The notes under the pieces were generated by a model. That model did no database searches. It worked only from the letters and a program-made list of their open reading frames with translations, and was not told where the DNA came from. Below are positions 1 through 58,039 of a DNA stretch of 64,000 bases, piece by piece. Within the stretch, counting starts at the first letter, position 1; the number at the start of each line of letters is the position of its first letter. The DNA is taken from contig NC_086097.1 of assembly GCF_963921235.1 (NCBI RefSeq), positions 3,534,001-3,598,000 on the forward strand. The letters are read 5' to 3'. Source of the stretch: Mobula hypostoma. Lineage: Eukaryota. The position numbers were made by a program, and so were the translations under genes.

Positions 1-512
1 AGTGATAATGATCAGGAATAACCAGGAATGATCTTGGCAGATTTTTCTGCAGAAGTGGCTTGCCATTGCATTCTTCTGGGCAGTGTCATTCATCGTCATC
101 GTGGCTATCCCTCGAGGTCGAGGATGATGGTCTTCGTTCTGAAGAAGTGGCCCACAGAGTGAAGATGCCTGTGCGTGTAGTTGTTTAATGTGTACTTGAT
201 GTTGCACTCCAAGAAGCACACGATACTTCACAATCAACCAACTGATTCCAATGGCATGGAAACCACGACAATTGGAGCTGATGGATTTGTTGCAGCCTTT
301 ATCCGCCTTCACAGCCGTTGAGTTCGAAGTAACTTCGTCCGCCTGTTCCACCTTTGAGGTCTTGGTTGGAGGCAGTGTCATTACAAGGTGATTGAATCCA
401 GCCATTATCAATACTCCTCAGAGACTGTCTGCTTGGCACCAGGACTTGTGATATGTACCAGCTACCCATACAACCATCTATCACCTGCTCCCAGGGGCTC
501 ATGTGACCCTAA
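1..512 (-). mobile_element. RTE-related SINE-like element (family B), interrupted by a younger insertion at 91-370
   Basis: The minus strand has a BovB/RTE-like motif (CCAGAAGAATGCAATGGCAAGCCACTTC). It shares AGGGTCAC(A/G)TGA..GGGAGCAGGTG with 15826-16020. Confidence 0.6.
91..370 (-). mobile_element. 5'-truncated non-autonomous RTE-derived retroposon (family A)
   Basis: Near-identical reverse complement of ~54158-54433. Perfect 12-bp TSD GGCAGTGTCATT at 79-90 and 371-382; (GAT)n-like tail. Confidence 0.92.
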
Positions 513-5720: not shown

Positions 5721-6345
5721 TGGTTCTTATGGCAGCTTGCTGTGAAGTAAGGCAGCAAAATAATATGTTTTCTTTTAGTGGTGTAGATGTTGCATTCAGT
5801 AAATCATGGCAAAGTACAGACTTGTTTCAAGTGAGGCCTCCAGTGAGGACTGTTGCTTATAATTATTGCTTATAATTTTCCTCAAATTACATTGATTTTT
5901 TAAAATAAAAACAGTCATCTCCTATGACTTTGCCTGCAGGGTAAGTATAATTCTCTCATGGAATTCTGAACAATTTATTAATAAATAACAATATCCTAAC
6001 GAAAGTAACAATATTTGCAAAATGAGCAGCGTTTCCATTAAGGCAATTAAGGTTAATTAAAGATTTATTGGGGAATACTAGAATGATCTGATATTATGAA
6101 AGGGAAATACATTTGCCTTCACATTTAAGAATATCTTTAGATTGGGCTAATAGATGATACTGTGGTAAACCGAATCAGAAACAGATTTAATATCACTGGC
6201 ATGCGTCATGAAACTTGTTCTTTCTAAGTAGTGCTTAGGAGACCAAAAAAGATTTTTAAAATACTGAGGTAGTGTACGTGGGTTTACTGTCCATTCGGAA
6301 ATCTGACGGCAGAAGGGAAGAAGCAAATTTGTGGATGACTCCACG

Positions 6346-7083
6346 ATTTGTTGTGGCTATCCCTCGAGGTCGAGGATGATGGTCTTCGTTCTGTTGATCT
6401 ACTTATGGGCTCTCAAGTGGCTTATGAGTCCAATCTTGGCTTTGAAAGATCTTCCGCATTCAGGACAGGTAGTTCCAGATGACAGATCGGGCTTTGGTTG
6501 TTGCTGCCTCTCTTTCCATTTTCTTCTCTCTTCTTCTAATTCTGCACATCTATTGGCTTCGAAAGTTGCTGTTCCTCCTCGGATGATGGCTTGACAGAGT
6601 TTCCTGTCCTTGTCATTGGTTTACCAATTGTTGATGTAGATGTTACATTTCTTCATGTTGGCTTTTAAGACGTCTTTGAATCTCTTCTGTTGTCCGCCTC
6701 TTTTACGTTTGCCTTCTTTAAGCTGGGAGTAGAAGATTTGTTTCGGCAGATGTTCGTCTTTCATCCGAACAACATGACCGCTCCATCTTAGTTGGTTCTT
6801 GATGACGTAGGCTTCAATGCTTGTTGTTTTTGCTTCATTTAGCACGCTGACGTTGGTTCTTCTATCTTCCCAGCTGATAAATTTAAGATGTTTCGAAGAC
6901 AGCGTTGATGGAACTTTTCAAGTGCCTTCAGATGTCATCGGTATGTTGTCCAGGTTTCTGATGCATACAGGAGTGTTGGGATTACCACTGCTTTGCACAC
7001 TAACATTTTGGTGTCTGTTTGGATGTCACGATCATGAAAGACTCTTGTTCGGAGGCGTCCAAAAAGCTGTTCCAGCGCATTTA
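6346..7083 (-). mobile_element. RTE-clade LINE, 5'-truncated
   Basis: QLRWSGHVVRMKDEHLPKQIFYSQLKEGKRKRGGQQKRFKD; C-terminal zinc finger CPECGRSFKAKIGLISHLRAHK*; short 3' UTR with (CAA)n tail. It splits the FADD motif of a CR1. Confidence 0.92.
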
Positions 7084-7930
7084 AGATGATGTTGGATCTG
7101 TAGTGTAGTGAACAGTGATGAAGACTGTCATGGCTTGTGGAGGGATGTGGACCAGCTGGAAAAATAGGCTGAAAAATGGCAGGTAGAATTTAATGCATAC
7201 AAGTGTGAGTTGTTGCACTTCAGTAGGACCAGCTAGGGTAAAGCTTAAAGAGTGAGCAGTAGGGCACTGAGGAATGTGGTAGATGAGAGGGATCTGGGAA
7301 TACAGATCCATAATTCCATGAAAGTGGTGTCACAGATAGAGCCTTAAGGAAACCTTCTGACACATTGGTCTTCATAAGTCAAAGTATTCAGTGCTTTGGG
7401 ATGTTATGTTGAAATTGTATAAGATGTGGGTGAGGCCTAATTTGGAGTATTGTGTGCAGTCTTGGTCACCTATCGGCAGTAAAGATATAAAGGGTACAGA
7501 TAACATTTATAAGTATTGCCAGGACTAGAGGACCTGAGTTATAAGGAAAGATTGAATAGGTTAGGACTTTATTCCCTAGAACATAGAAGACTGAAGGGAG
7601 ATTTGATAGAGATATAGAAAATTATGAGGAGTATCGATAGAGCAAATGCAGGCAGACTTTCTCCACTGAGGTTGGGTGAGAGTAGAACTGGAGGTCATGG
7701 GTTAATGTGAAAAGTTTAATGGATAATTTCTACACTCAGAGGGTGATGAGACTGTGGAATGAGCAGCCAGCGGAAGTAGTAGATGCTGGGTTGATTTCAG
7801 CATTTAAGTAAAATTTGGACATATACATGGGTGGGAGACTTATGGTCTAAGTCCCGGTTGATGAGACTAGGCAAGCATGGACGAGATAGGCCAAAGGGCC
7901 TGTTTATGTGTTATTGTATTCTACGACTAT
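7084..7930 (+). mobile_element. CR1 LINE 3' part (5' stub at ~6322-6345)
   Basis: Decayed VRPNLEYCVQSWSP, LRGDLIEIYKIM and 3' UTR. Confidence 0.85.
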
Positions 7931-45800: not shown

Positions 45801-46915
45801 AGTAATGATCGTTCAAGGACTACTAGGTTCTGGAATGGTTCCAGAAGACTGGAAAATTGCAAATGTCATTCCACTCTTCAAGAAGGAAGAGAAGCAGAAG
45901 AAAGGAAACCATAGGCCAGTTAGTCTGACCTCAATAGCTGAGAACATGTTTTAGTCAATTATTAAGGATGAGTTCTCAGGGTACTTGGAGGCACATGATA
46001 AAATAGACCTCAGTCAGCATGGTTTCTTCGAGGGAAGATCTTGTGGGACAAATCTGATGAAATTCTTTGAAGAAATAACAAGCAAGATAGACAAAGAAGA
46101 AATGGTTGATATTGCGTACTTGGATTTTCAGAAGTCATTTGACAAGGTGCCACACATGAGACTGCTTAATAAGTTACCAGCCAATGGTATTACAGGAAAG
46201 ATTTTAGCATGGATAAAGCAGTAGTTGATTGTCAGGAGGCAAAGAGTGGGAATAAATGGAACCTTTTCCGGCTGCCCGCCAGTGACTAGTGGTGTTGCAT
46301 AGTGGTCTGTGTTGGGCTGAATCTTTTTACATTATATGTAAATGATTTGGATGATGGAATTGATGGCTTTTTTGCAATGTTTGGAAAGCACTAGTGAGGA
46401 CTCAGTTGGAGTATTGTGAGCAGTTTTGAGCCCCGTATCTTAGAAAGGATGTGCTGAAACTGGAGAGGGTTCAAAGGAGATTCACGAAAATGATTCCAGG
46501 ATTGAATGGCTTGTCATATGAAGAGCGTTTGATAGCTCTGGGCCTGCATTCATTGGAAATTGGAAGAAGGAGGGGTGACCAAATTGAAACCTATTGAATG
46601 GTGAAAGGCCTTGATAGAGTGGATGTGGAGAGGATGTCTCCTATGATGACCAGAGGACACAGCCTCAGAGTACATGGAGATGAGGCAGAATTTCTTTACC
46701 CAGAGAGTGGTGAATCTGTGTAACTCTTTGCCACAGGCAGCTGTGGAGGCCAAGTCTTTATGTATATTTAAGGCAGAGGTTGATAGATTCTTCATTGGTC
46801 AGGGCATGAGGGGATACAGGGAGAAGGCAGAAGATTAGATTAGCAATGATGAAATGGTAGTGCAAACTCGATGGGCCAAATGGCCTAATTCTGCTCCTAT
46901 ATCTTATGGTCTATG
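42900..46915 (+). mobile_element. Near full-length decayed CR1 LINE (5' UTR, ORF1, ORF2, 3' UTR), apparently chimeric
   Basis: ORF1 ELELDELQIIREAEGVIDRTY, VLGDSL, HLNWRRTN; ORF2 EN and RT motifs (YLDFQKSFDKVPH); tail CCTATATCTTATGGTCT. Confidence 0.92.
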
Positions 46916-47375
46916 ATGAGTGCTGCCTTTTTGAGGTGTTACCTTTTGAATGTATTCTTGATGCTGGGGAGCCTAGTGTTCATGATAGACTAATGTCACT
47001 GCATCTTCTCCCAGAGAATAGCTCGGAACATTCCTTAAGAAAATGCTATGATGCATTTACATATTTAAGCTTTTGTTCAAAACAGTAGGATCACAAATCT
47101 ATTACATTCAGTGTTGGAATGAAGCACAAATATTTCCAAACAGATGGTTGTCACACAGATCAAATAAAACAGTTCAATCATTTTGATAAGTGGCTTATTA
47201 AATCAGTGATGCCTTTCCAGATTTCATTTCAACTCTCTGCAAAAGCAACACTTTAACTTACACAGCTTTATTTGATTGATTATTTGCTTTTTAATATCTT
47301 ATGAAAAAATAAGGAAAACTGTTTTGAACACCTCTCTGTAAACTCAATATTGTGAAACAACATGTTTGTTTGCTA

Positions 47376-53519: not shown

Positions 53520-53850
53520 AACAGTGAAGTGCCCCTCTTCTATTTACTGAGGTTATTGACTGCCATTGTAATTGTAAGTGTGTATATCGCCCCTGTGCTA
53601 ATGTGTGAAGCACTGTGTGAGCTCTGTGGCACCGTCAGTGAACTGCAAAGCACACACACTGGTTTCATTACTGTTGACCTCAACCAAACTAACTTGAAAA
53701 CAGCCCTGCCTAAATTTTATCAGCATATTGACTTTGCTACCAGAAGTGAGATCACATGAGACCTGATTGATACAATCGTCCTTGATGCATACAATGCTGT
53801 CCCCCATTCCTCCCTTGGATACTCGGTACACTTGTCTATTACACTAATTC
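53520..53850 (+). mobile_element. Rex1/Babar endonuclease fragment
   Basis: VSVYIAP, VDLNQTNLKTALPKFYQHIDFATR. Confidence 0.75.
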
Positions 53851-54015
53851 CTGGTTATTGACCTATTTCTGGTTAATTGAATCCATTGCCTGTATCTTTT
53901 CTGAGGCTTCTCTTAAAGAATACGGTGGCATTGGAAGAAAGTGAAAGGGCACAATTCTCAGGATGGATTTGATTTCTGGCCTATCGTCACTTTGTATTTC
54001 TTTTGCTTTACTGTT

Positions 54016-54160
54016 CTTCTCCGTGGATTGTCACCTTGTCGCGGTGGAGAAGCTTGTGTGGTCCTGTGATCCCGAGAGCGATGCCGTCTGGAGCCATGCT
54101 CCTGGTAGGGTCACCCATGGTGGTAAGGTCGAGGGTGAGGTCCCTGACAAAGAACAATCC
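54016..54160 (+). ncRNA. Candidate HDV-like (double pseudoknot) self-cleaving ribozyme
   Basis: P1 CTTCTCC/GGAGAAG, P2 GGATTGT/ACAATCC, P3 ACC/GGT, L3 TTGTCGC and J4/2 CAAAGA, in HDV topological order. P1 starts at the element's 5' end. Confidence 0.6.
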
Positions 54161-54433
54161 AACCAAGACCTCAACGGTGGAACAGGCGGACGAAGTTACT
54201 TCGAACTCAATGGCTGTGAAGGCGGATGAAGGCTGCAACAAATCTATCAGCTCTAATCGTCGTGGTTTCCATGCCATTGGAATCAGTTGGTTGATTTGTG
54301 AAGTATCGTGTGCTTCTTGGAGTGCAACATCAAGTACACGTTAAACAAATACACGCACAGGCATCTTTGCTCTGTGGGCCACTTCTTCAGAACAAAGACC
54401 ATCCTCGACCTCGAGGGATAGCCACGATGATGA
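54016..54433 (+). mobile_element. Full-length bipartite non-autonomous RTE-derived retroposon (family A)
   Basis: RTE-type 5' UTR (CACCTTGTCGCGGTGGAG..GGTAGGGTCACCCATGG..CTGACAAAG) plus RTE 3' tail and (GAT)n; TSD GCTTTA(C/G)TGTT at 54005-54015 and 54436-54446. Confidence 0.9.
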
Positions 54434-54469
54434 GGGCTTTAGTGTTACTTTAGTGTGAGAAATAAACTT

Positions 54470-55280
54470 GAAGGCCAAGTATATTTCAAGGAAAGGTTGA
54501 TAGGTTCTTGATTAGTAAGGCTGTTAAAAGTTATGGGGAGAAGGCAAGAAATGGGGCTCGGAGGGATAATGAATTAGTTGAGGCATTGAGTTCAAAAGTT
54601 AGGAGGTTATGTTGCAACTTTATAAAACTCTGGTTAGGCCACATCTGGAGTATTGCATACAGTGCTGGTCACCTCATTATAGGAAGGATGTTGAGGCTTT
54701 GGAGAGAGTACAGAAGAGGTTCACCAGGGTGCTGCCTGGTTCAGAGGGCATGAGCTATCATGAGAGGCTGGACAAACTTGGGCTGTTTTCCCTGGAGTGG
54801 CGGAGACTGAGGGGAGATCTGATAGAGGTTTCTAAGATTATGAGAGGCACAGATAGAGTGGATAGAGAGTATCTGTTTCCCAGAGTTGAAACGCCTAATA
54901 CCAGACGGTTTGCATTGAAGGTGAGAGGGGATAGGTTCAAAGGGTTATGTTTTTTCTCAGAGAGTTGTGGACACCTGGAATGCGCTGCCTGGTATGATGG
55001 TAGAAGCAAATACATCGGAGGCTTTTAAGAGACGTTTGGATAGACACATGGATGTAAGGAAGATGGAGGGATATGGACATGGTGTAGGTGGGAGGGTTGT
55101 AGGTGTTTGAGTGTTTTTGATTTGCTTTTTAGCTGGTTCGGCATAGCACTGTGGGCCGAATGGCCTCTTCCTGTGCTGTACTATTCTGTGTTCTATGTTC
55201 TCAAATCAGCCATGGTGGAAAGAAGAAACAGACTTGATGGGCCAAATAGCCTAATTCTGCTCCTAAGTCTTATGGTCTAA
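54470..55280 (+). mobile_element. Two nested CR1 3' ends (inner copy ~54577-55201)
   Basis: ORF 54609-55028: LVRPHLEYCIQCWSPHYRKD; the outer 3' UTR resumes at ~55202. Confidence 0.88.
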
Positions 55281-57225: not shown

Positions 57226-58039
57226 GACAATCTTCCCCCACCCTTCACCCCTCATCCCTCCCTTACCTGCTTCCACCTTTGAGAAGTTTGGCTAAGTACA
57301 TGGATAGTAGGCATAAGGATGGCTATGGCCTGTGTGCAGGTTGATGGGATTTGGCAGATTAAATGGGCCAGCACAGACTAGATGGGCTGAATGGATGTTT
57401 CTGTGCTGTGCATTTCTATGAATCTACCCACCTGCAGGCCAGACACTGCCTTTATCCTCTCCCTTCTCTGCCCATCCCTTCCCTCTACCCAGTTCCATCT
57501 GTCAATCTTGCCAATGAACCAGTAAACCAGGCTTGTAATCTTCTACATGTAGGTACTGAATGCATACTAAAACTTAGCAGAACTTTAAGCATTTCTTTAG
57601 AAGAAAATATTGTAAACCTGGTCTTCCAGCATTCATAATAGATCTGATAGGTGGTGGACACCCGCCTCTCCCAATCTCTCCAGCTTCCTCTTAACTTGTT
57701 CACGTTAAATTTCAATACAGTTTTAAACACCATCCTTCTTTAAACAGCTGTCCACACATATTCAACTTGTTGGGCCTCTCTATATTTAGTTTCATTCTTA
57801 TCTAGTAGTAGCCAGAGAACCTCCTACATTGTTTTATCCACTCGAAATTCTGTTGTTCTCTAGGGACCCACCCTTGGCTCACTTCTATTTGCACTATTTC
57901 CCTGGCAAAGGTATCTGATCTGAAGAAACAGTGTTGGTTTCAAATGTACTTGTTGACATCCGGATCTACCACTCTGCTGCCTCTGTAAAATCAAACTGTT
58001 GCCCAACATCAGGGCCTAATTAAGTACTAATTGCGTAAA

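What the first reader, a model, noticed from the sequence alone, without database searches (positions are those of the whole stretch)
54016..54160. Candidate HDV-like ribozyme forming the exact 5' end of a non-autonomous RTE-derived retroposon
Seen: the helices occur in HDV order. P1 is CTTCTCC 54016-54022 / GGAGAAG 54046-54052 (7 bp), P2 is GGATTGT 54025-54031 / ACAATCC 54154-54160, and P3 is ACC 54033-54035 / GGT 54043-54045. L3 is the 7-nt TTGTCGC. A long insert sits at the P4 position (GGTCCT/AGGTCC with one mismatch; inner GGAGC/GCTCC hairpin). The J4/2-like CAAAGA holds a candidate catalytic C at 54148. The left TSD ends at 54015, so the insertion begins exactly at P1. Established: HDV-type ribozymes cut immediately 5' of a 7-bp P1, HDV L3 is UCCUCGC, and such ribozymes process the 5' ends of R2 and some RTE retrotransposons. 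Inference: this ~420-nt SINE has no tRNA head and could release itself from read-through transcripts by self-cleavage. Caveats: +1 is C rather than G (an alternative register has a 4-bp P3 and a lost G+1), P1.1 is at most one G-C pair, and the base of P4 is weak.
Basis: partly seen in the sequence, partly recalled or inferred. Interest (0 to 1): 0.85.

Follow-up and report, generated by a model that had tools for sequence, protein, structure and literature searches.

The report
HDV-like ribozyme at retroposon start
The first ~145 bases of an abundant short mobile element, and of the full-length RTE element it was cut down from, fold like the hepatitis delta virus self-cutting RNA, and distant relatives keep that fold through matching base changes, so the element very probably trims its own RNA to an exact start: a known trick of such elements, here in a new sequence family.

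Summary
The ~420-nt retroposon is real. The other 29 of the 30 best genome copies start within a few bases of 54016. 19 of the 30 have exact target-site duplications (TSDs), and 13 of those abut base 1. It is not a classical SINE. Its bases 1-374 are the 5' end, and its last ~45 bases the 3' end, of a ~3.9-kb RTE-type LINE in the same genome. 20 of 37 sampled LINE copies start at the same base. The decisive evidence is comparative. Four RTE relatives from metagenome contigs (two further lineages, 47-57% protein identity) keep the fold with compensatory changes in P1, P2, P4 and the single P1.1 pair (G-C to A-U). One lineage has the canonical G.U at the cut site. L3 (UURUCGY) and C54148 are invariant. 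A descriptor cut to this candidate is expected 0.24 times per window by chance. No Rfam HDV model matches, and cleavage itself is untested. Verdict: the reading is supported. This is a new member of a known kind, the 5' ribozymes of RTE/R2 elements and their internally deleted derivatives.

The parts
54005..54015 (+). left target-site duplication (GCTTTACTGTT)
   Evidence: repeated with one mismatch at 54436-54446
54016..54435 (+). non-autonomous retroposon (internally deleted RTE; SIDE-like)
   Evidence: other 29 of the 30 best copies, 95-96% identical, share the start; exact TSDs in 19 of 30
54016..54022 (+). P1 5' strand; predicted cleavage is 5' of C54016
   Evidence: 5 of 7 P1 pairs change on both sides across lineages
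54023..54024 (+). J1/2 (2 nt; 3 nt in the metagenome lineages)
54025..54032 (+). P2 5' strand (7 bp, plus C54032 opposite A54153, a mismatch here, U-A or C-G in other copies)
54033..54035 (+). P3 5' strand
   Evidence: A-U 7 rows, G.U 1; C-G 8; C-G 7
54036..54042 (+). L3 loop UUGUCGC; G54038 pairs with C54053 (P1.1); G54041 sits where recalled HDV numbering has G25
   Evidence: UURUCGY in all 8 aligned rows except one copy with a point change
54043..54045 (+). P3 3' strand
54046..54052 (+). P1 3' strand
54053..54054 (+). P1.1 partners (C54053 with G54038; U54054 opposite U54037)
   Evidence: GC in 5 rows, AU in 3 rows; the second position is unpaired in 7 of 8
54060..54143 (+). P4 domain: long irregular helix ending in two hairpins; holds the ORF1 start codon
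   Evidence: RNAalifold; compensatory changes in 9 of its 25 pairs
54144..54153 (+). J4/2 region CUGACAAAGA; invariant C54144 and C54148 (candidate catalytic C)
   Evidence: C129 and C133 invariant in 8 of 8 rows; for the rule that the catalytic C opens J4/2
54154..54160 (+). P2 3' strand
54081..54344 (+). 87-codon ORF, the short first ORF of the parent LINE
54016..54389 (+). part identical in order to LINE bases 1-374
   Evidence: 92.5-93.9% identity to L073, L077, L076, L071
54388..54435 (+). part matching the last ~45 bases of the LINE plus the (GAY)n tail
54436..54446 (+). right target-site duplication
6345..7099 (-). 5'-truncated copy of the partner RTE LINE (RT C-terminus, zinc-finger-like end, same tail)
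93..370 (-). second, 5'-truncated copy of the short element (its bases 143-418; no ribozyme)

Best explanation
Bases 54016-54160 encode an HDV-like (nested double-pseudoknot) self-cleaving ribozyme. It is the 5' end of an RTE-clade LINE and of its ~420-nt internally deleted derivative. Inferred mechanism: a copy is transcribed as part of a longer host or read-through transcript. The RNA folds into P1/P1.1/P4 and P2/P3 stacks and cuts itself immediately 5' of C54016, probably using C54148. This gives every RNA the same first base regardless of where transcription began. The RTE reverse transcriptase then recognises the shared ~45-nt 3' end with its (GAY)n tail and copies the RNA into a new site by target-primed reverse transcription. 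That produces copies that begin at base 1 and are flanked by 7-12-bp duplications. Shown here: the helices, the shared start, the LINE/short-element relationship, the TSDs and tails, and conservation of the fold by compensatory change. Inferred: catalysis, which C acts, co-transcription, and any role of the cleaved fold in translating the ORF that starts inside P4.
For: 1) Anatomy in HDV order, starting on base 1 of the element. The layout P1 1-7, P3 18-20/28-30, P1' 31-37 matches genomic HDV numbering as I recall it.
2) The element start is defined independently. The other 29 of the 30 best copies start there. 13 of 19 exact TSDs abut base 1, with no recurrent extra base. 20 of 37 LINE copies reach base 1. 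Loose ends pile at 54014-54016 in other runs.
3) The same 5' end heads the autonomous LINE.
4) Comparative: the ribozyme region stays 64-69% identical in RTE relatives that are only 47-57% identical in APE protein. In their own registers each has 7 paired P1 positions, 7-8 bp in P2 and 3 bp in P3. P1 is CUUCUCC/GGAGAAG here, GUCCUCC/GGAGGAU in L183 and CUCUCUC/GAGAGAG in L182.
5) Tool counts. On the MAFFT alignment A2, 88.3% of cells pair against 81.0% shuffled (0 of 500 shuffles reach it). 15 of 45 pairs change on both sides against 8.9, and slid controls give 34-53%. On the model-fitted A4 the figures are 89.2%, 18 of 45, and 5 of 7 P1 pairs.
6) P1.1 covaries, GC in 5 rows and AU in 3.
7) RNAalifold on its own returns P2, P3 and a P4 domain, with 10 of 34 pairs compensatory.
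8) L3 is UURUCGY, and C129 and C133 are invariant.
9) Chance rate of the descriptor is 0.24 per 128 kb.
10) Precedent: HDV-like ribozymes at RTE and R2 5' ends (PMC3774820 passages; PMC6765202 section 11 passages).
Against: No Rfam HDV-type family matches, at gathering score on the window or at E<=10 on 53800-54700 or on L183/L182. The minimum-free-energy fold is no more stable than shuffles (z 0.16; 108 of 200 shuffles fold at least as well), although pseudoknots are not modelled. The cut-site pair is C-G here, not G.U. P1.1 is one pair plus U/U. Four bases lie between P4 and C54148, whereas the catalytic C normally opens J4/2 (PMC10879173 passage), so the active C is ambiguous. Only three independent lineages exist: L182, L139 and L140 are ~92% alike, so '3 rows' is one event. 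L139 lacks the P1 5' strand, L140 is placed one base off in A4, and L183's P2 is read one register off by the tools. A4 is fitted to P1/P3/P4. Model R1 finds the motif in only 4 of the 80 relative loci plus a partial fifth, although 57 of the 80 have at least 700 nt upstream of APE. Within the genome family I saw only one-sided or CpG changes, no compensatory ones. No RNA-end or cleavage data exist.
Confidence: 0.8

Rival explanations
1. The exact 5' end comes from an internal promoter that starts transcription at C54016. The conserved pseudoknotted fold would then serve another purpose, such as ribosome recruitment for the ORF that starts inside P4, or binding of the element's protein.
For: A shared start nucleotide is equally expected from a fixed transcription start. 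The first bases CTTCTCC look like a pyrimidine-rich initiator (my recollection, not tested). L1Tc's first 77 nt are reported to be both promoter and ribozyme (PMC3383444, abstract), so the two are not exclusive. ORF1's ATG lies in P4.
Against: It does not explain why the conserved fold has exactly HDV topology, with P1 starting on base 1, an HDV-like L3 and an invariant C before P2'. Reviews describe RTEs as lacking their own promoters (PMC6765202 section 11 passage). No extra base of the kind I recall for capped templates sits between TSD and base 1 (13 of 19 abut directly). That last point is weak.
Confidence: 0.1
2. The fold is a genuine ribozyme in the wider RTE lineage but is crippled in this genome's family by C1-G37, the C54032/A54153 mismatch and weak P1.1. 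The copies then owe their start to something else or to residual slow cleavage.
For: The canonical G.U occurs only in L183. P2's eighth pair is mismatched in the short element and in 24 of 28 LINE copies, but paired in L073 and in L182.
Against: The family amplified to thousands of candidate copies with precise starts. L182's lineage also has C1-G37. All core positions are intact in the majority sequence of the copies.
Confidence: 0.08
3. The resemblance is chance: the helices were picked by eye from a structured GC-rich stretch.
For: The descriptor was cut to fit the candidate. A second strict hit at 57369 is evidently chance. There is no Rfam hit and the MFE z-score is 0.16.
Against: The chance rate is about 2e-6 per position against a hit exactly on an independent boundary. 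Compensatory changes occur in four helices and slid controls collapse to 34-53% pairing.
Confidence: 0.02

Closest known systems
[quoted passage not shown] 2011, not held here, known to me by recollection and through PMC3774820 and PMC6765202 passages)
   Same: Nested double pseudoknot with P1 starting at the element's first base, cleavage releasing the element from a co-transcript, a variable P4, and an ORF start close behind.
   Different: No curated Rfam HDV-type model scores it. C-G rather than G.U at the cut site in this lineage. One-pair P1.1. An 84-nt branched P4. Four extra bases before the candidate catalytic C.
R2 SIDEs, short internally deleted elements (PMC3414825, abstract read)
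   Same: A non-autonomous element made by joining the 5' ribozyme to the 3' end of the parent LINE, then mobilised by the parent's machinery.
   Different: R2 SIDEs are rare and site-specific in rDNA. This one derives from an APE-type RTE, inserts genome-wide with TSDs, has thousands of candidate copies, and keeps 374 nt including the short ORF.
L1Tc / NARTc of Trypanosoma cruzi (PMC3383444 abstract; PMC3185411 and PMC4035085 search listings)
   Same: An autonomous LINE and its truncated partner share a 5' HDV-like ribozyme.
   Different: A different LINE clade and a 77-nt minimal ribozyme that doubles as a promoter. Promoter activity was not examined here.
Twister-variant ribozyme at the 5' end of the RTE element Perere-3 (PMC8501958, abstract and passages)
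   Same: An RTE-clade LINE with a 5' self-cleaving RNA, TSDs next to the cut site, and a microsatellite-like tail.
   Different: A different ribozyme class. There the TSD supplies the P1 5' strand, whereas here both P1 strands lie inside the element.
CPEB3 ribozyme (recalled)
   Same: A 7-nt L3 and a weak P1.1 with one G-C pair beside a U/U.
   Different: A single-copy intronic mammalian sequence with G at +1 and a short P4. Not compared by any search beyond the negative Rfam scans.

Membership tests
HDV-like self-cleaving ribozyme | P1 of 6-7 bp whose first base is the cleavage site | tested here: met
   7 Watson-Crick bp from base 1 of the element. 5 of 7 pairs change on both sides across lineages.
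HDV-like self-cleaving ribozyme | P2 between the strand after J1/2 and the 3' terminal strand, forming the first pseudoknot with P1 | tested here: met
   7 bp here, 7 in L183, 8 in L182. Recovered by RNAalifold. 3 pairs compensatory by the tool.
HDV-like self-cleaving ribozyme | 3-bp P3 closing a ~7-8-nt L3 directly before the P1 3' strand | tested here: met
   ACC/GGU with UUGUCGC. P3 is paired in 95.8% of cells. L3 is UURUCGY.
HDV-like self-cleaving ribozyme | P1.1 (1-2 bp between L3 and the bases after P1), the second pseudoknot | tested here: met
   One pair, GC in 5 rows and AU in 3 rows. The second position is U/U in 7 of 8.
HDV-like self-cleaving ribozyme | catalytic C opening J4/2 | tested here: inconclusive
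   C54144 (first base after P4) and C54148 (5 bases before P2') are both invariant in 8 of 8 rows. Spacing differs from the usual 4-nt J4/2 (passage; HDV spacing recalled).
HDV-like self-cleaving ribozyme | G.U wobble at the cleavage site | tested here: not met
   C-G in this genome and in L182/L140, G.U only in L183. R2 ribozymes are described as flexible in sequence (PMC3774820 section 16), so I do not treat this as excluding.
HDV-like self-cleaving ribozyme | Mg-dependent self-scission giving a 5'-OH and a 2',3'-cyclic phosphate | not testable with these tools
   No raw RNA reads were served. Contigs cannot show ends.
HDV-like self-cleaving ribozyme (Rfam families) | score against a curated covariance model | tested here: not met
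   0 hits at gathering score. No HDV-type family at E<=10.
RTE-clade LINE (partner element) | ~3-4 kb; short first ORF; one long ORF with APE then RT; short 3' UTR ending in simple repeats | tested here: met
   About 3.9 kb; 87-codon ORF1; APE and RT frames. Relatives are 1050-1065 aa with PF03372/PF14529/PF00078, several named craniofacial development protein 2. The link between that name and RTE is recalled. No clade phylogeny was built.
Classical SINE (Pol III head from tRNA, 7SL or 5S) | a 5' head related to a small RNA gene | tested here: not met
   ARAGORN found 0 genes in 53800-54600. No tRNA, 7SL, 5S or snRNA family at E<=10. The head is the LINE 5' end.
SIDE-type non-autonomous element | 5' ribozyme region joined to the 3' end of the parent LINE by internal deletion | tested here: met
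   Bases 1-374 match the LINE 5' end at 92.5-93.9%. The last ~45 match the LINE 3' end at 81-91%. A 2-nt overlap (CA) sits at the junction.

The most novel reading that the evidence does not exclude
An animal genome carries thousands of copies of a working HDV-like ribozyme of a sequence family absent from Rfam, spread by a short RTE derivative. Every sense-oriented copy inside a gene would then be a potential self-cleavage site in the host transcript. The ribozyme tolerates C at +1 and a single-pair P1.1. Its large branched P4, which holds the first ORF's start codon, would double as the translation-start platform of the uncapped RNA. The sister RTE lineages seen in the metagenome contigs, which have other conserved 5' folds, would mean that 5' processing RNAs are swapped among RTE lineages.
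Probability: 0.3. Interest if true: 0.65.

Novelty: new member of a known kind. Interest (0 to 1): 0.5.

Why it matters
It adds a comparatively supported HDV-like ribozyme from a large animal genome, in a sequence family that no curated model finds. It shows that an abundant 'headless SINE' can be explained as a ribozyme-headed deletion derivative of its LINE. It supplies natural variants for studying what the HDV fold tolerates: C-G or G.U at the cut site, G-C or A-U in P1.1, and an 8th P2 pair present or absent. It also supplies a covariance model (R1) with which eukaryotic genomes could be screened. If the copies are active, thousands of self-cleaving sites lie scattered through host transcripts.

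Tried and rejected
- Rfam at gathering score on the window and at E<=10 on 53800-54700 and on L183/L182: no HDV-type family. The only hits were weak miRNA/snoRNA matches, two of them on a microsatellite.
- Single-sequence folding: uninformative, z 0.16.
- Covariation within the genome family (30 short-element copies, 28 LINE 5' ends): only CpG decay and one-sided changes. An example is A to G at 54051 in 9 of 28 LINE copies, which gives U.G.
- Earlier findings of this scan: nothing on record.
- RNA evidence: no RNA holder listed. All 24 runs are kept as contigs, and laying 4 of them gave no table of molecule starts, so nothing on expression or RNA ends can be said.
- A loose descriptor on the 80 metagenome loci drowned in GU-rich repeats. 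A tighter one gave 7 rows in 87,169 positions. Five of them are L182/L183; the L175 and L185 rows have loops without the conserved G and were set aside.
- nhmmer and model R1 found no further homologues among the other 76 loci except a partial L116. A 15-bit match at window 46908-47007 (E 0.21) was taken as chance.
- The second strict descriptor hit at 57369 was rejected because it starts inside another repeat whose similarity ends at about 57420, before its supposed P2' (one related copy only).
- Papers wanted but not held: Ruminski 2011, Webb and Luptak 2011, Webb 2009. What I say of them is recalled or second-hand.
- Literature searches listed no paper on an HDV-like ribozyme in a fish or other vertebrate RTE or its short derivative. 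That holds only for the library searched.

Full report
OBSERVATION.
- P1 is 54016-54022 with 54046-54052 (7 Watson-Crick pairs).
- P2 is 54025-54031 with 54154-54160 (7 pairs).
- P3 is 54033-54035 with 54043-54045. The loop between its strands is UUGUCGC.
- The P4 base is 54060-54065 with 54138-54143 (one U/U mismatch). The inner hairpin is 54090-54094 / 54098-54102.
- C54148 lies inside CAAAGA.
- The left target-site duplication is 54005-54015. It recurs with one mismatch at 54436-54446.
Counted from C54016 as base 1, the layout is P1 1-7, J1/2 8-9, P2 10-16, P3 18-20, L3 21-27, P3' 28-30 and P1' 31-37. As I recall it, this is base for base the layout of the genomic HDV ribozyme. That comparison rests on memory, not on a call.

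THE ELEMENT IS REAL AND ITS START IS EXACT. The window lies in a 3.48-Gb eukaryotic assembly. The 425-nt stretch gave 3453 first-look candidates, and the 40 that were scored are 95-100% identical. I re-aligned the 30 fetched loci with 100 nt of flank on each side. The other 29 all begin at query 91-103, where 101 is 54016. The few that start earlier are short chance extensions into flank (alignment). These are the best-scoring copies and so are biased towards full length.
A script found exact duplications of 7-12 nt in 19 of the 30:
- In 13 the duplication abuts base 1.
- In 2 there are one or two extra bases.
- In 4 the duplication overlaps the first one to three bases.
- The other 11 are 9 copies with no exact repeat of 7 or more (the window's own copy among them, because of its mismatch) and 2 where my tail anchor failed.
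The tails are (GAY)n. ARAGORN finds no tRNA-like head, and no small-RNA family scores at E<=10.

IT IS A CUT-DOWN RTE LINE, AND THE LINE HAS THE SAME 5' END. The last ~45 bases recur at window 6353-6393 on the minus strand. There they end a 5'-truncated LINE that encodes a reverse-transcriptase C-terminus and a CxxC...HxxxH finger. Walking upstream through genome copies gave eight long copies:
- In four of them (L073, L077, L076, L071), bases 1-374 of the short element match the first 374 bases of the LINE at 92.5-93.9%.
- Two (L078, L072) carry inverted 5' pieces.
- Two are truncated.
The short element is therefore LINE 1-374 joined to the LINE's last ~45 bases, with a two-base overlap at the joint. 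The LINE is about 3.9 kb, with an 87-codon first ORF (54081-54344 in the window) and a long APE-RT frame. Its APE domain has 1324 database relatives at E<=0.001 among 2004 candidates. Many are 1050-1065 aa, and several are named craniofacial development protein 2. From memory, that name marks RTE-derived genes. I built no clade tree.
For an independent sample of LINE 5' ends I searched with a LINE-only segment (40 scored of 481 candidates). I then fetched 321-nt slices for 37 of them. The outcome was:
- 20 of 37 reach base 1.
- 3 reach base 2-4, and 1 reaches base 8.
- 9 are truncated or inverted further in.
- 4 show no match in the slice.

TESTS THAT SAID LITTLE OR SPOKE AGAINST.
- No Rfam family reaches its gathering score in the window. 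No HDV-type family appears even at E<=10.
- The nested minimum-free-energy fold keeps P2 but is no more stable than shuffles (z 0.16).
- Within the genome family the variation is CpG decay and one-sided change. The one recurrent non-CpG variant in P1, A to G at 54051 in 9 of 28 LINE copies, turns U-A into U.G.
- Laid contigs from four public runs show the same boundary and the same CpG variants, but nothing compensatory.

CHANCE. A strict descriptor modelled on the candidate hits the real window twice: at 54016, and at 57369, which lies inside an unrelated repeat. In 150 dinucleotide-preserving shuffles it hits 0.24 times per 128 kb. A hit somewhere in a window is thus not rare. A hit on a pre-defined base is about 2e-6. 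The descriptor was fitted after the fact, so this figure is only indicative.

THE DECISIVE EVIDENCE IS COMPARATIVE. An alignment of the APE domain with 13 relatives retrieved 80 metagenome-contig loci that encode RTE relatives. BLAST with element bases 1-370 found the ribozyme region in L183, L182, L139 and L140 at 64-69% identity. L116, L117 and L120 match only downstream, with contigs that end before or inside the ribozyme. nhmmer found the same four plus a partial L116, and so did covariance model R1 (10 matches at E<=1 in 84 sources, 8 of them the seeds). L182, L139 and L140 are about 92% alike, so there are three independent lineages. Their APE domains are 47-57% identical to this genome's.
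Read in each sequence's own register:
- P1 is C-G U-A U-A C-G U-A C-G C-G here. It is G.U U-A C-G C-G U-A C-G C-G in L183 and C-G U-A C-G U-A C-G U-A C-G in L182.
- P2 is GGAUUGU/ACAAUCC here, GAGUUGC/GCAACUC in L183 and GGACUGCU/AGUAGUCC in L182.
- P3 is ACC/GGU, or GCC/GGU in L183.
- L3 is UUGUCGC, UUGUCGU or UUAUCGU.
- The P1.1 pair is G-C, G-C or A-U.
Homology between L182 and L140 begins exactly at the first P1 base, and their flanks are unrelated.
The tools' own counts follow.
- On the unedited MAFFT alignment A2 (4 rows from this genome, 4 from metagenomes), 88.3% of 360 cells pair against 81.0% in shuffles (0 of 500 reach it). 15 of 45 pairs change on both sides against 8.9. Sliding the partners by 1-3 columns drops pairing to 34-53%.
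- On A4, aligned by a model that knows P1, P3 and P4 but not P2 or P1.1, the figures are 89.2%, 18 of 45, and 5 of 7 P1 pairs.
10 of its 34 pairs are compensatory.
Caveats:
- L139 lacks the P1 5' strand.
- L140 is set one base off in A4.
- L183's P2 is read one register off, so the tools understate it.
- Shuffles ignore relatedness.
- Three lineages are too few for a formal covariation test.

WHAT REMAINS OPEN.
(i) Catalysis was not tested.
(ii) Which cytosine acts. C54148 is invariant and is followed by AAA, which I recall resembles HDV's C-G-A-A. But four bases separate it from the last P4 pair. The equally invariant C54144 is the first base after P4, the usual place of the catalytic C (PMC10879173 passage). 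Position 54057 with 54146 (U.G here, C-G in L183, L139 and L140, C/A in L182) hints that P4 continues through non-canonical pairs up to C54148. This is inference.
(iii) The eighth P2 pair (54032 with 54153) is C/A here, C-G in LINE copy L073 and U-A in L182.
(iv) R1 finds nothing in 76 of the 80 relatives, although 57 of the 80 have 700 nt or more upstream of APE. Several of those share other conserved 5' folds.

COMPARISON WITH WHAT IS KNOWN. HDV-like ribozymes that cut at the first base of R2, R4, L1Tc and RTE elements are established (PMC3774820, introduction, discussion and section 16 read; PMC6765202, section 11 passages). The primary RTE paper, Ruminski 2011, was not held. Non-autonomous elements that keep the parent's 5' ribozyme and 3' end are known as R2 SIDEs (PMC3414825, abstract) and as NARTc beside L1Tc (PMC3383444, abstract). 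The RTE element Perere-3 uses a twister variant instead (PMC8501958, abstract and passages). The present case works like these and meets the structural definition of an HDV-like ribozyme, except for the G.U cut-site pair in this lineage. It fails every curated Rfam model. I file it as a new member of a known kind. Four literature searches listed no description of such a ribozyme in a vertebrate-type RTE or its short derivative, within the library searched.

VERDICT. I put 0.8 on this being a functional HDV-like 5' processing ribozyme of an RTE LINE and its deletion derivative. Interest is moderate at 0.5. The mechanism is textbook for the clade. The example is well supported, abundant, absent from Rfam, and rich in natural variants of the core.

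Noticed in passing
L121/L168/L193/L177; L122/L167/L124/L175; L126/L131/L181/L132/L160; L186/L188 (first ~400 nt of each locus): Other RTE relatives have different conserved 5' regions about 650-900 nt upstream of the APE domain. Two groups share a three-way-junction-like motif (CCAGCUAG, hairpin, YGAAAAG, hairpin, CCUGCUGG). It gives sub-threshold Rfam hits to RF02996 int-alpA (24-26 bits against a gathering score of 35.8; E 0.3-0.8). This could be another 5' processing RNA of RTE elements.
   Followed up: partly
window 93-370 (-): A second copy of the short element, 5'-truncated at its base 143 and 94% identical, so without the ribozyme.
   Followed up: partly
L032-L040 (LINE 3' copies), e.g. 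L032:1291: 6 of 9 LINE 3' copies share one 5' end about 960 nt from the tail. Either this is a recurrent truncation point or a second, ribozyme-less non-autonomous form.
   Followed up: no
window 54153: This base, opposite C54032 at the inner end of P2, is A in the short element and in 24 of 28 LINE copies, but G, T and C in L073, L076 and L071. G would close an eighth P2 pair.
   Followed up: partly
L078 and L072 (oriented copies): These full-length-range LINE copies carry inverted 5' segments of the ribozyme region, as expected from twin priming.
   Followed up: no
window 6405-6470 (-); alignment A1 C-terminus: The LINE ORF2 ends in a CxxC...HxxxH zinc-finger-like motif that is conserved across relatives. 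One database relative is named a C2H2-type domain protein.
   Followed up: no
L183:1-121: The L183 ribozyme is preceded by about 120 nt of (TATG)n microsatellite, which also causes spurious miRNA-family hits. It may be the tail of an upstream element or a preferred target.
   Followed up: no
window 57369-57476 (+): This is the only other strict HDV-descriptor hit in the window. It starts inside an unrelated repeat (similarity 57297-57420 to a piece of L078), and its P2' lies outside that repeat. I take it as chance.
   Followed up: yes
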